Assembly: GCA_049724395.1 (NCBI GenBank)
Contig: JAUGWO010000116.1
Location: 1 to 64,000, forward strand
Reading direction: 5' to 3'
From: Spongospora subterranea f. sp. subterranea
Lineage: Eukaryota
Length of the DNA: 64,000 nt
The number at the start of each line of letters is the position of its first letter. Position 1 is the stretch's first letter. A program made the translations under genes and the position numbers. Positions 57,281-62,913 of the stretch are shown piece by piece. Under the pieces are notes generated by a model. The model ran no database searches. It worked only from the letters and a program-made list of their open reading frames with translations, and was not told the origin of the DNA.

Positions 57281-60200
57281 TTATGATTCCGACCTGGTTG
57301 ATCCGGTGATCGGTTGACACATTATGGTTAAGGCCATCTGCCGCGGAAACCTCAAATCTTGGTCGTCCTTATAAACCTTATCCAAATCCTATACCGAATT
57401 GTTAATCCACAAATTTGAAGTCCTTCGTGATCAGCTGAAAAATACATATATCACCATTTCAAATATAGTATTGCGTCAATAAAACCAGCAATTTTGTCTG
57501 GGTATTTCAAAGATTTAGACCATGTTCAAGATTACACTGAAAAATTTGTAATTTGGAAAAATTAATCGTTTCAGGAATCACAGAGCAGTGAGAGAACATG
57601 TGTCAAACAAAGCAGATTGATTCGAAGACAACGAACAACGGTGAACGATTCAGTTGTGATGAATGTACCGATTTTGCAAAGGTTTGTTGTTCTGGTAGGA
57701 ACGCGGAATTCAGACAGAGATACATGAGGACCCGGGCCATCTTGCCCTTGCGTTCCCGGGACAGGACTTCGATCTTCACGTCGCCCACTAGCGGGCACGA
57801 CTTCCTGATTCTCCAGACGCACGACGATTCTGACCGCGACAGCATCCTGATCCATTTCTGGCGAATCTTCCCATCGTCCTGTCCAAAACAGTGCACAAAA
57901 CCCTCAGAATTGCGGTTTCTTTCATCCGTTCAACGAGGGCAAAATCCGTTTTTTATCTCGTTGCACTTCTCCAGGTACGGTGTCGAAAACCAGATTGTCA
58001 GAAGAACCCACCAGCGAAATAAAAAAAACAAAAGACCAACAGAATCTGTTAGAGTAAAAGAGTGTCAAAACGTTCAAAGAAACATTTTGCAATCGGGAAA
58101 ATCACGCTAAAGAGGTCGCAATGAGGGAACAACATCACGAAAATAGGGGTTGTTCATGGTAAATCGTGGAGAAAGCCGACCTGCTGTAAGGCAATCATGA
58201 GCCACACCTCTTGATCGTCGGCGATGCAGACCGGGTCGATACCGTCCAGCACAACGCTGGTCAGGTTGACGGCGCGCCCCAACACGATAGGTCTATCCAC
58301 CATCGATATAAAACGGCTGTCTGCGTTCACAGAATCAGCTTGACCAACGACTGTTTGTGGTGCGAAACCATCAAATCAAGAAACCTGACTGTTTCTATTG
58401 AAACAAATTGATGTTGAATTTCAAAAATTCGAGAGAGACTGTGAATGAAATCGGATTGGATTGCGATCGTACAGTATCCGACGTATCGCCGCTGCGATGG
58501 GGCTAGAGACTGGATTGTTTCGGATGGATCCTTCATCGCCCAGAACATCTCCAGGGCCTGATTCACTGATGCGGCCGCCGCCGAATGCAGAAGATACGCC
58601 GCCACCATCATACTGAATTCGGGCAAGTTTCAGTTCAACAAACAATGAGATAACGGTGAATGAAAAGTTCATTGAACGTCGTCGTGTAATTGCCGATGTG
58701 GCGTAGCGAAGCGTTGATCAACAGAAACGAGATGGTCAGAAAATTACCTGCAACGCCCCTTTCCAGCCTTGCTATGGATCAACGCAAGGTGATGGGGTTG
58801 GGCGAGCCAATGCTCCATTGACCTGCAGAAGTCGACCATCATCTGGAATGGGCACGGGGCGTGACCGGAAAACGGGAAATGAACGACTGAGTTGGTGCCG
58901 GCCCCCGTTGCCATTTCTAGGTCGTACTGAACATCTGTACAGAAGTGAACGGTGAGCTGCCGAATGGACAGAAGACCTTGGAGATTTCGGGTTCGATAAA
59001 ACGAAATTGGTCCAGCGTGTGAAAGGATAACGAACTAAACCGCAAAAAAACATTGTTCAAGTTGAGAAGATTTAAAGTTTTAACATATAAAAACATACAT
59101 CCTAAGATTGAACGAGAAAACTGCCGAGATAAAACACAAACACCCGTAAACGATGTGAATTTGCCGAACGGACCTAGACAGAAATTGTAAATCCTGAACC
59201 GCCCTTTGTGGGACCGAACAGTTTCCGCAATGTGATCGATCGCTCTGGGTTGATGTGGCTCCATCACCACCATCACCATGATCTGTGGCGATATCACCGT
59301 CGTCTCCACCCCGTCCACGACCGAGACCCTCACCGCAGCCGGCGCCGGTACGACCTCAGCCGGCGCCGGCGTCTCCAGCGCCATCAGCGAATACCTCGTC
59401 CGTCCCACCACGCCCGCGAACGCAGCTGCCAGCACAGCCAGGGCAACGCAACGTCGGCGCACCGTCCACGTTACCAGCGTTGCCTGTATCGTAACCGAGG
59501 CCTGGCGCCGGATGCGCCAACCCTGACCCAGTAACAGGGCCATGGCCGCCTGCAACGGGATCACGGCGCGCTTGACTAGCGCGCCGAGGGCGGATTCCAG
59601 CGCGCCATGCGCCTCGGCCTTCAGGAACACCAGGCTGGTCCCGATCGCGTACTGGCCCGCGTCCGGGAACCGCCCCGACAGGAACGGGCCGATGTGCGGG
59701 TCGTCCATCTGGTGGCGATACCGGGCGCGGAACGCGTCGTGGGCGATGCGGATCGGGTACCCGGCCTGGCGAACGCGCACGAGCTCCAGTACGCCGGCGT
59801 TGGCGAGCTGGTCGATCACGGTCGGCCCGTGGAACAGGTTGGAGCGGGCGGTGGCGTTGGGCTTGACGCAGCGGATGAAGTGTGGATCGGTTGACGACAA
59901 AGCCGTAATCAGATGGCCAACTTGGCCGCGGAAGTGGCTGCCTTGGAATTTGCCCTTCTTGAGGCTCTTGCGACCCGCTGTTGTTGGTGTCGTTGGTGAG
60001 AACTGATCCTCTGTTAGCTCTGTGGACGCCGCCGTGTTGGAGTTGATGATCTATTTACACGACAATAGTTAGAACCTGATTAAGACAGACCAAATGATAA
60101 ATTCTTCACAGATCGACCGAACAATTCAACGTCAACGAAAGAATCATATTGAGCTGGTGATTAATATGCCGAGGTGACAACACACCGTTTTCATGATCGG

Positions 60201-62913
60201 ATCCGCGGCCGTTTCCAGGAGATCGTGCAAATCATCGCTAAGTCGGTCACGGTTCTTGACCAGGAACTCCGACGCATCGTATTGAACCGCCCCGGCGTAG
60301 TGGGCAACGGTGATGTGCAGCGGCCGGGCGCGAGAATCATCTGTCAGAATCGACGACGCTTTCTGCGCCTGCCCAAACATTGCCCTCCATTAGACACGAA
60401 TTTTTGTCCAGAAATATCAGAAAAGGAAACGGCGATCAACGAAGTTACAGAAAGAGAAAAGAGGTCGAAGTTCAACACAAAACGGCTTTGGGATTGCACA
60501 AAAATCATAATCGATCAGTAATTGAGTTGGAAATTCTGGGGCAATCGATGGCGAAGGCGGAAGACGTACTTGGATGAGTTTGACGAAGAAATTGGTGGGC
60601 GATCCTTGAGGAACCAGACATTCATCGTCGAGCAGGCGGAATCCGACGTCCAGCGCGGCCAGCGTGTTCTGACAGTCGTGATAGGCGATGTGGTGCCAGC
60701 CGATACCCTCGCTCACGTACAGGTCCTGCTCGGATTTCGCCAGCACCGTCCCGACGAACAGCGCCTGCAGGCGCTCGTTGCAGTAGTTGATGCAGAACTG
60801 CTCGAACCCGTTCTTGTCGTCGAATCGTTCGAACCCCTGTACCATAATGGGTCAGCTCAAGAAGGCATTTGCTCTAGCAGATTATCAACGAAATCAACAA
60901 AAACACGTTGAATATAATCAGTTCTACGAAGAGGCAGCAACGACGTTCACGTACAAAGACGTCCAGAACTCCAATCTTGATGAGTTCAGCGGGAATTGCA
61001 CCTCCTTCGTCAGATTCCACAACATTCGTTGCCGGTGCGGGGTGCAGCGCCAGGTTCATCCGGGCCACGAGCCAGTGAAACAGGCGCGCGTACAGCTCCT
61101 TGGCCAGGGCGTTCTTGGAGGAGATGGACTTGTCGACGGAGACGGGGGAGCAGACGCGATGCCGATCCTGACCGATTTGCCGCGAGATCAGCGCCGAGTT
61201 GGTTTTATCTTCATCTGCAGATCGACATCGTTTATTATCAAGATCAGAAACCGCAAGCAAAAACGACCATCAAACTCGTTGAATCAGGGCCGTTTCCCGC
61301 TGGAAACTGCGTTTGTGAACGATAGGGTGAAGTGAAATGAGCAACGATTACCGAGAGTGGTGAGCTTGAGGAACCATGTCAGATGGGAGCCGGGCACAAT
61401 CTGGGCGTTGCCCAGGGCGTCGGACACGAACTCCAGGTTGGACAGGTGCAGTATGGCGGCCAGGACGCGGGTCACTGCCAGAATCTCGCCCTCGCCCATC
61501 CCCACGGTCGCCATCGCCGCCGTGATCGCTGGCCATTCTTCCCCCGGTGTTGCCACCTGTCGACCGCATCAGCAAAAAAAAAAAAACCGACCGTTATTGC
61601 AAATTCAACAGATCCAAAACGCAAAAGTCAGTAGATTTCAACGCTGTTGAAATAATCGATTTGGAACGAGTTGTTGATGATATCGGTGGATTCGCCTCTG
61701 ACCTGTAATGATGGAATCGATGGGCGTCTTATTCTGACCTTGGGCGCTGGAAGCGGTCCCGACAGCCCCGTTGGCACCAGCATGGAGTAGGCGGCGGCGC
61801 GAGGCACCAGGCCCAGTTCGCTACGCAGGGCGGACTCCTGGCGCCACTGCACCAGCGTGTACAGGGCGTGGAACGTCCGTTCGCCGATCGAATGGCTGAC
61901 GACCCGCGATGTCTCCAACATGAAGTACGCCATGCTGGCGTGCACCATTTGCCCCGAATTACGATCGATGCTGATCTCCAGGTATTTCCCGAAGCGGGAG
62001 CTGATCCCAGCGTGAATATGAAACCGATCATGATTGGCATTCGATCGGGGGATGTTCAAGGTACCTGTTATCGTTGCGAGACGTCTGGGCGTTGCCGAAC
62101 GCCTCCAGAATCGGGTTGCATTGCAGGATACACGTCTGGATCTGGCTACTGACTGAGTAAATCCAGGTCGTCATTGGTCAGAGCATTGTTCCAAAGACAA
62201 AATCGCGTTTCCGAAATGACAGTGACGTTGCGGAAAGAACCTGTTCTTGTAAAGATTGACACCGGGAGAGAAACAATTGCCAAAAACAGGAAATGACAGT
62301 TGCGGAAGGGACGGGATTAAAGATATGTGAACTGACACGTTCGTGTGATATGGCACGAAGCCGATATCTCTGTTAGCATCTGCAGTGCATATTTCGCCGT
62401 CTCGGTTTTGCCGGATCCGGAATCGCCGCAAATGATAAGCGACTGGGCGACGCCGGTCTGGCGAACTCGTTCGTGGCAGCGGCGCGTGATCGTGAAGATG
62501 TGTGGCGTGGTGTCGTCCCGGTGCTCGATGGCGTGGCGCATGCGGTCGAGCCCATAACAGCCCGGGACGCTCTTGAACGGGTTGACCGAGATCAGGGTCG
62601 GCCCGGCCACCGTATAGACCAGGTCGCGGTGGTAACGTGCCCTGAGCGTTGCCAGTAACGAGGCGACGGTAACGCGATCCAGACGGGACAGGTCGTCGAC
62701 CAGAGCCAGGTCGACACTGGCGTCGTTGCCAATCGACACCAGGCTGGACGTGAGGACCTGGCGCTGGGCCGAGGTCGGTACGGCCGCCGGCTCGACGATC
62801 GCGACCTCGACCGTGTCGTTGTCGATGGCGGTGACGCGAGCCCGAACCCAGCCGTGATCGGCGTCCGGGCACCACCATTCGCTGCCAGTTTGGAGATCGC
62901 CCACCAGCGACAT
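57281..62913 (-). CDS. Unconventional myosin: SH3-like N-terminus, motor, ~3 degenerate IQ motifs, PTEN-like pseudophosphatase and PTEN-C2 tail; multi-exon
   Basis: GDSGSGKTET, NPILEAFGNA, NSSRFGKY, FEQFCINYCNERLQ and PHFIRCVKPN; tail FRIYNFCL, IHSKAGKGRCSMMVAAYLL, PSQRRYVGYY, LVGDVKIE and KSDLDKVYKD..RFP. Confidence 0.92.

What the first reader, a model, noticed from the sequence alone, without database searches (positions are those of the whole stretch)
57281..62913. Myosin fused to a complete PTEN-like phosphatase plus C2 tail
Seen in sequence: the motor, IQ region and start of the PTEN-like domain share one uninterrupted ORF (58917-59900). Hand-splicing the later exons gives a tail collinear with human PTEN: VDGVETTVISPQIMVM..RFRIYNFCLDVQYD..VVHFPFSGHAPCP..FCRSMEHWL..IHSKAGKGRCSMMVAAYLL..PSQRRYVGYY..LVGDVKIE..LNSAFL..KSDLDKVYKD..RFP. 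Established: PTEN-like plus C2 modules occur in tensin, auxilin/GAK, voltage-sensing phosphatases and plant class II formins; I do not recall one as a myosin tail. No coiled coil is evident. Inference: a monomeric motor that links actin to phosphoinositide-marked membranes, possibly an undescribed myosin architecture.
Basis: partly seen in the sequence, partly recalled or inferred. Interest (0 to 1): 0.9.

Follow-up and report, generated by a model that had tools for sequence, protein, structure and literature searches.

The report
Myosin with a dead PTEN tail
A plant-parasitic protist related to the clubroot agent has a spliced gene that joins a myosin motor to a PTEN-like domain and a C2 domain; the PTEN part lacks both catalytic residues, so it likely grips signalling lipids on membranes rather than breaking them down, a myosin design not found in the papers searched.

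Summary
The fusion is real. A 13-exon minus-strand gene (62913→57281, all introns GT-AG) encodes 1158 aa: divergent myosin motor, long neck helix with two degenerate IQ-like motifs, PTEN-like domain, PTEN-type C2. Motor end, neck and PTEN start share exon 8. RNA-like contigs join introns 7–12, and one contig runs from the neck into the phosphatase exons. No single contig spans motor to tail. The catalytic Cys is Ser (HSKAGKGR, the C124S equivalent) and the general-acid Asp is Gly, while the P-loop Lys/Arg residues remain. The host is a plasmodiophorid relative of Plasmodiophora brassicae (EF-Tu 84% identical; other hits ≤71%). No orthologue was found: 0 of 176 fetched proteins and 0 of 25 loci carry this tail, and the best motor identity is about 36%. 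Ten literature searches found no myosin with a PTEN tail, but one key supplement could not be read. Most likely mechanism (inferred): a single-headed actin motor docked on phosphoinositide-marked membranes by a dead PTEN-C2 module, as in plant class II formins. Verdict: orphan myosin with an apparently undescribed architecture, known so far from one lineage.

The parts
62357..62913 (-). Exon 1 (aa 1-185): start codon, weak SH3-like N-terminus, motor start with ATP-binding P-loop GDSGSGKT (62427-62404)
   Evidence: Myosin_head E 3e-26; Myosin_N E 4e-4, below cut-off; model; intron not tested on RNA
62065..62145 (-). Exon 2 (aa 186-212): motor, first half of switch I
   Evidence: model and GT-AG borders; alignment with myosins; borders not tested on RNA
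61739..62000 (-). Exon 3 (aa 213-300): motor
   Evidence: Myosin_head E 4e-13
61352..61556 (-). Exon 4 (aa 301-368): motor
   Evidence: Myosin_head E 1.5e-4
60955..61214 (-). Exon 5 (aa 369-455): motor, first half of switch II
   Evidence: Myosin_head E 2e-9
60570..60836 (-). Exon 6 (aa 456-544): motor, rest of switch II and relay region
   Evidence: Myosin_head E 5e-24
60186..60368 (-). Exon 7 (aa 545-605): motor
   Evidence: Myosin_head E 2e-9; intron 7 joined in X5/X10
59174..60050 (-). Exon 8 (aa 606-897): motor end and short converter, neck helix (aa ~750-831) with IQ-like motifs at 59555-59523 and 59489-59451, Pro/Ala linker, start of PTEN-like domain (from ~59315)
   Evidence: Myosin_head E 1.5e-22, no IQ hit; predicted converter and continuous 82-residue helix; contig joins 59501-59174 to exon 9
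58748..58934 (-). Exon 9 (aa 898-959): PTEN-like core; acid loop with Asp->Gly (58875-58855); pseudo active site HSKAGKGR (58776-58753), Ser codon AGC at 58773-58771
   Evidence: PTEN best PDB hit, E 1.3e-7, with alignment; no other letters over this exon in the X4, X5 and X10 contigs
58473..58612 (-). Exon 10 (aa 960-1006): end of PTEN-like domain with PSQRRYV (58500-58480)
   Evidence: weak collinear PTEN match, E 0.29; both introns joined in contigs
58181..58320 (-). Exon 11 (aa 1007-1053): linker and presumed first C2 strands
   Evidence: joined in contigs; no PTEN_C2 hit on its own
57669..57878 (-). Exon 12 (aa 1054-1123): PTEN-type C2 core with a basic loop RERKGKMAR (57758-57732)
   Evidence: PTEN_C2 29.5 bits vs cut-off 27.1; joined in contigs
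57281..57388 (-). Exon 13, coding part (aa 1124-1158): C2 end and stop codon
   Evidence: joined in contigs; stop at 57281
57112..57280 (-). 3' untranslated region, as far as contigs reach
   Evidence: X1 and X4 contigs end at 57112; contigs cannot fix the true end

Best explanation
This spliced gene encodes a divergent myosin whose tail is a PTEN-like domain lacking its catalytic Cys and Asp plus a C2 domain; the tail likely binds phosphoinositide-marked membranes without hydrolysing the lipid, so that a probably single-headed motor would pull or hold those membranes on actin. Shown: exon structure of the tail and its splicing to the neck, conserved nucleotide-binding motifs in the motor, and Cys->Ser and Asp->Gly in the PTEN pocket with the P-loop Lys/Lys/Arg kept. 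Predicted: converter plus an 82-residue lever helix. Inferred: light-chain binding at the degenerate IQ sites, monomeric state, lipid binding by the pocket and the basic C2 loop, and a role in endo/phagocytic membrane handling in the parasite.
For: Collinear Myosin_head and PTEN_C2 hits. One 1158-aa open frame from 12 GT-AG introns, with exons GC-rich (0.55-0.65) and introns poorer (0.34-0.48). Six of the 7 introns in the laid stretch are joined in contigs; X4 contig 14 runs from 59501 (neck) to 58473. Runs X1-X4 hold 0.53-0.55 of sampled words, against 0.536 expected if all exons are present and 0.19 for the tail alone. P-loop, switch I and switch II are conserved in alignment. The converter has pLDDT 97-98 and is followed by a continuous helix. 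PTEN alignment shows C->S and D->G. C124S removes nearly all PTEN activity and D92A traps substrate (PMC9157142, passages). A dead PTEN domain targets moss class II formin through PI(3,5)P2, and a Cys->Ser MTM1 keeps lipid binding and substitutes for it (PMC3410418, abstract start and passages).
Against: No contig spans motor to tail. X1 and X4 show no cover from 59572 to 60700, and introns 1-6 were not seen on RNA. X5 and X10 give identical figures and are probably one data set, so there are at most two independent samples, all labelled RNA only by guess. No orthologue exists to show that the pocket's basic residues are under selection. The motor is a long branch (1.17 vs median 0.55) with a converter deletion. 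Pfam IQ does not hit. The helix prediction used an alignment of ordinary myosins and may be biased by it. PTEN's N-terminal basic PIP2-binding motif (recalled, not from a call) is not evident here. The tail itself was not folded.
Confidence: 0.55

Rival explanations
1. The dead PTEN-C2 tail mainly binds a protein (a phosphoprotein cargo, an adaptor, or the motor head itself for autoinhibition) rather than lipid.
For: Cys->Ser and Asp mutants trap substrates generally (PMC9157142 passages). The N-terminal basic PIP2 motif is not evident (recalled comparison). The C2 region has net charge of only +3.
Against: The P-loop lysines and arginine are kept, exon 12 has a basic loop, and dead PTEN domains in formins bind lipid.
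Confidence: 0.2
2. The motor has decayed into a slow or non-moving actin binder, and the protein is a static membrane-actin tether.
For: Very long branch, short converter and several substitutions in conserved motor positions, degenerate IQ motifs.
Against: P-loop, switch I and switch II are intact; converter and lever helix are confidently predicted.
Confidence: 0.14
3. The dominant product is a tail-only or motor-only protein, and the full fusion is minor or not made.
For: No single contig spans motor to tail; X1 and X4 show no cover over the laid motor exons.
Against: Motor end and PTEN start share one stop-free exon. Word share fits all exons. X4 contigs continue upstream of 59501 at similar depth (1782 vs 2483). 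An unspliced contig over intron 8 has depth 3.7 against 2483.
Confidence: 0.07
4. The tail is an active lipid phosphatase carried by the motor.
For: Overall PTEN collinearity, with the P-loop Arg and the PSQ motif kept.
Against: The nucleophilic Cys is Ser and the acid Asp is Gly. The Ser codon is unchanged in the contigs. C124S abolishes PTEN activity.
Confidence: 0.04

Closest known systems
Plant class II formins, and PTEN-bearing stramenopile formins
   Same: A catalytically dead PTEN-C2 module is fused to an actin-handling domain; in moss For2A it binds PI(3,5)P2 and targets the cortex (PMC3410418, PMC2386819, passages).
   Different: The actin domain here is a myosin motor, not FH2. The module is C-terminal. 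It is disabled by Cys->Ser and Asp->Gly with the Arg kept, whereas plant formins lose the Arg and stramenopile formins the His.
PTEN (human, PDB 1d5r/5bug)
   Same: Best sequence match to exon 9, with collinear phosphatase then C2 order.
   Different: No catalytic Cys or Asp; fused behind a myosin head and neck.
Tensin and auxilin/GAK
   Same: PTEN-related module in cytoskeleton and membrane-traffic proteins (PMC2386819 passage).
   Different: No motor domain; other partner domains (SH2/PTB, J-domain; recalled).
Class I myosins and other myosins with lipid-binding tails
   Same: Motor plus neck plus a tail that reads phosphoinositides (PMC12676778 and PMC3419119, search listing and abstract start only).
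   Different: The tail is PTEN-C2, not TH1/PH/PX. The motor shows no close relative among 77 aligned myosins; class I references were not deliberately included.
Choanoflagellate myosin III-like proteins with Y_phosphatase domains
   Same: The only myosin-phosphatase fusions named in PMC3942036 (passages and section 25).
   Different: Classical tyrosine-phosphatase domain (PF00102), no PTEN C2, unrelated lineage.

Membership tests
Myosin superfamily | Myosin motor domain | tested here: met
   Myosin_head hits across profile positions 1-637 of 679 on 7 frames; 31-36% identity over ~750 aa to full myosins
Myosin superfamily | P-loop, switch I and switch II nucleotide motifs | tested here: met
   GDSGSGKT, NDNSSRFGK and DVFGFE align with other myosins; two of these span introns not checked on RNA
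Myosin superfamily | IQ-motif neck | tested here: inconclusive
   No Pfam IQ hit; two degenerate motifs at IQ positions; long helix predicted
Myosin superfamily | Actin-activated ATPase and motility | not testable with these tools
   needs biochemistry
Any numbered myosin class | Supported grouping of the motor with class members | tested here: inconclusive
   FastTree of 78 motors: sister (0.958) only to another very long branch, P0023; unlabelled sample, likely long-branch attraction
Active PTEN lipid phosphatases | Catalytic Cys in CX5R | tested here: not met
   HSKAGKGR against PTEN HCKAGKGR
Active PTEN lipid phosphatases | General-acid Asp loop | tested here: not met
   FSGHA aligned to PTEN FEDHN
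PTEN/tensin-type module | PTP-like domain followed by PTEN-type C2 | tested here: met
   Atlas leads to PTP/TPTE2/PTEN fragment clusters, top score 0.90
PTEN/tensin-type module | Phosphoinositide binding | not testable with these tools
   basic residues kept; needs a lipid assay
Class II formins | FH2 domain | tested here: not met
   no FH2 hit on any exon frame scanned

The most novel reading that the evidence does not exclude
The founding member of an undescribed myosin class in Phytomyxea, in which a PTEN module was recruited to an actin motor and disabled by its own route (Cys->Ser plus Asp->Gly, a natural substrate trap). This would be an independent repeat of what plant and stramenopile formins did, giving the parasite a motor that reads one phosphoinositide directly to move phagocytic or endosomal membranes.
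Probability: 0.45. Interest if true: 0.7.

Novelty: new variant of a known kind. Interest (0 to 1): 0.57.

Why it matters
It adds a tail type to the myosin catalogue and shows the dead PTEN-C2 module being reused as a membrane address on a motor, not only on formins, tensin and auxilin. The natural Cys->Ser/Asp->Gly pocket is a ready test of pseudophosphatase lipid reading. Phytomyxids cannot be cultured easily and feed by phagocytosis inside host cells (PMC10953367, title, abstract start and passages), and that paper's main text names no myosin or PTEN. A lineage-restricted motor is a concrete handle on that cell biology. The claim is limited by being one gene in one genome, with no orthologue found.

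Tried and rejected
No whole genome is held, so paralogues and a stand-alone PTEN could not be sought; within the window there is only this copy. Word-index protein search with the 377-aa frame: 24 ordinary myosins among 7991 candidates, no self or orthologue. The same search with exon 9: 1 candidate, none scoring; a weak blank. Exhaustive phmmer with exon 8: 6374 hits, best 150 listed. The top hit P0028 (E 4e-44) is a Brassica myosin record with a thrice-repeated motor segment, not an orthologue. The tail found 0 of 176 fetched proteins at E<=1 and 0 of 25 metagenome loci. Only the top 150 hits were examined, so a very diverged orthologue could be missed. Single-sequence AlphaFold of exon 8 was useless (pLDDT 36). 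Foldseek of the alignment-based model returned myosins, but with rmsd 12-24 A, so it adds little. The Atlas with exon 8 gave only myosin clusters scoring <=0.82. No RNA holder is on record as RNA. Missing cover over motor exons in X1/X4 is not taken as evidence, since the tool leaves some records out. The tree's pairing with P0023 is rejected as a class assignment. A crude heptad scan found its best window only in the neck helix; this is not a proper coiled-coil predictor. Three look-ups of earlier scan findings returned nothing.
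Full report
Observation. The region holds one minus-strand gene. Pfam scans of 13 frames put Myosin_head on seven consecutive frames in profile order (1-116 to 543-637 of 679) and PTEN_C2 above its curated cut-off on the frame at 57606-57929. Joining exons at GT-AG borders gives 13 exons, 12 introns of 64-302 nt and one open frame of 1158 aa from 62913 to a stop ending at 57281. 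Exons are 0.55-0.65 GC and introns 0.34-0.48. Its 'uninterrupted ORF' is a stop-free frame (58917-60050) that runs on through intron 8; the true exon ends at 59174. It is still true that motor end, neck and PTEN start lie in one exon.

Splicing. Ten runs hold the stretch; none is on record as RNA, nine are guessed. Six joints appear, all at my predicted borders (introns 7-12), that is 6 of the 7 introns inside the laid stretch. Intron 6 has no cover and introns 1-5 are untested. X4 contig 14 runs from 59501 in the neck through exons 9 and 10. An unspliced contig over intron 8 has depth 3.7 against 2483. Against this: no contig spans motor to tail, X1 and X4 show nothing from 59572 to 60700, and X5 and X10 have identical figures, so there are at most two independent samples. 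Indirectly, X1-X4 hold 0.53-0.55 of the sampled words. The model predicts 0.536 with all exons and 0.19 with the tail only, so the motor exons are very likely in those runs. Ten variant bases fall in 8 codons, 5 silent and 3 changing the residue (aa 788, 837, 1111), none in the PTEN pocket.

Motor and neck. P-loop (GDSGSGKT), switch I and switch II align with ordinary myosins, with a deletion in the converter region. AlphaFold on exon 8 with a 35-sequence alignment gives pLDDT 97-98 for the converter and one helix over residues 145-226 of the exon (aa ~750-831); the PTEN start is unresolved because it had no alignment support. Two IQ-like motifs are degenerate and Pfam IQ does not hit. Nothing helical with heptads follows the neck in a crude scan, so a single head is inferred, not shown.

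Tail. Exon 9 matches human PTEN best in the PDB (E 1.3e-7). Exon 10 matches the next PTEN stretch weakly (E 0.29), and exon 12 is PTEN_C2 (29.5 bits). Exon 8's PTEN-like start and exon 12 gave no PDB sequence hit. The printed alignment shows HSKAGKGR opposite HCKAGKGR and FSGHA opposite FEDHN. The nucleophile and the general acid (C124 and D92 in the usual numbering, recalled) are therefore both lost, while His, both Lys and Arg remain. The Ser codon is unchanged in the contigs, so it is not an assembly error. [quoted passage not shown] The tail is therefore a predicted pseudophosphatase.

Host and relatives. The window's mitochondrial EF-Tu has Plasmodiophora brassicae as best hit at 84% identity, and the other 119 listed hits are at 58-71%. 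The host is thus a plasmodiophorid relative, not that species. Exhaustive phmmer with exon 8 over 1.84 billion representatives gave 6374 hits, of which the best 150 were examined. The top hit is an artefactual repeated plant myosin. The tail matched 0 of 176 fetched proteins and 0 of 25 metagenome loci. Best motor identity is about 36%, to amoebozoan, stramenopile and unnamed myosins. In a tree of 78 motors (77 of 173 hits kept for covering at least 560 residues) the gene is a long branch, 1.17 against a median of 0.55, paired only with another long branch. P. brassicae proteins are in the collection, yet no orthologue surfaced. It may be absent, mis-annotated or too diverged (inference).

Mechanism. 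Most likely (0.55), the motor binds actin and swings a light-chain-bound lever, while the dead pocket and a basic C2 loop hold a phosphoinositide-marked membrane, moving or tensioning it. The precedent is moss For2A, whose dead PTEN domain binds PI(3,5)P2 and can be replaced by Cys->Ser MTM1 (PMC3410418, abstract start and passages). Plant and stramenopile formins each disabled their PTEN domain by a different residue (PMC2386819, passages). A role in phagocytic or endosomal traffic is speculation from the phagotrophy of phytomyxid plasmodia (PMC10953367, passages). Rivals are protein binding or autoinhibition (0.2), a static tether (0.14), separate products (0.07) and an active phosphatase (0.04).

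Novelty. Ten full-text searches (one search concerned PTEN mutants) returned no paper describing a myosin with a PTEN tail. 'Myosin motor domain' with 'PTEN domain' gave 0 papers. PMC5583752 has no 'phosphatase' or 'tensin' in its main text and included P. brassicae only qualitatively (passages and section 7). Its domain key is in a PDF too large to read, and its readable table holds only species. PMC3942036 names only Y_phosphatase in choanoflagellate myosins; one of its supplement files was not searchable. The rhizarian myosin survey 10.1101/064030 lists classes If, IV and XXXV-XXXVII (passages); its domain figure was not seen. PMC4471660, PMC13746701 and PMC5795050 (passages) describe no such myosin. 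InterPro and CyMoBase could not be queried. Both modules are familiar, and orphan myosins are common (287 in PMC5583752). The verdict is a new variant of a known kind: real, apparently undescribed, and so far from one genome.

Noticed in passing
window 56148-56744 (+): Single-exon 198-aa ORF converging on the myosin's 3' end. Contigs cover 56142-57047 in X1/X4. No Pfam family and the exact sequence is not in the protein collection.
   Followed up: partly
window 55373-55681: Inverted repeat with 96-nt arms, 94% complementary, 117 nt apart; looks like a small non-autonomous transposon.
   Followed up: no
window 53132-53597: hAT transposase dimerisation remnant (E 4.6e-7) beside short inverted repeats.
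   Followed up: no
window 9805-14677 (-): Three tandem copies of a similar ORF with a hydrophobic signal-like start, each next to a retroelement fragment. No Pfam hit. Possibly a secreted-protein family.
   Followed up: partly
window 4407-6158 and 24938-26631 (+): Two paralogous PA-domain membrane proteins resembling vacuolar sorting receptors (PA hits; the resemblance is recalled).
   Followed up: no
window 15802-18709 (+): Frameshifted Ty1/copia-like element (Pol_BBD, gag_pre-integrase, rve).
   Followed up: no
window 42914-44149 (-): Intronless mitochondrial EF-Tu, 84% identical to that of P. brassicae; used to place the lineage.
   Followed up: yes
window ~44900-51260 (+): Multi-exon DNA topoisomerase II gene.
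   Followed up: no
window 29490-30599 (-): Low-complexity Ala/Gly/Ser/Asp-rich ORF with a signal-like start; no Pfam hit and not in the collection as an exact sequence.
   Followed up: partly
window 59356-59364 and 59502-59503: Clusters of substitutions between the window and the contigs in the neck and linker, suggesting distinct alleles or isolates.
   Followed up: partly
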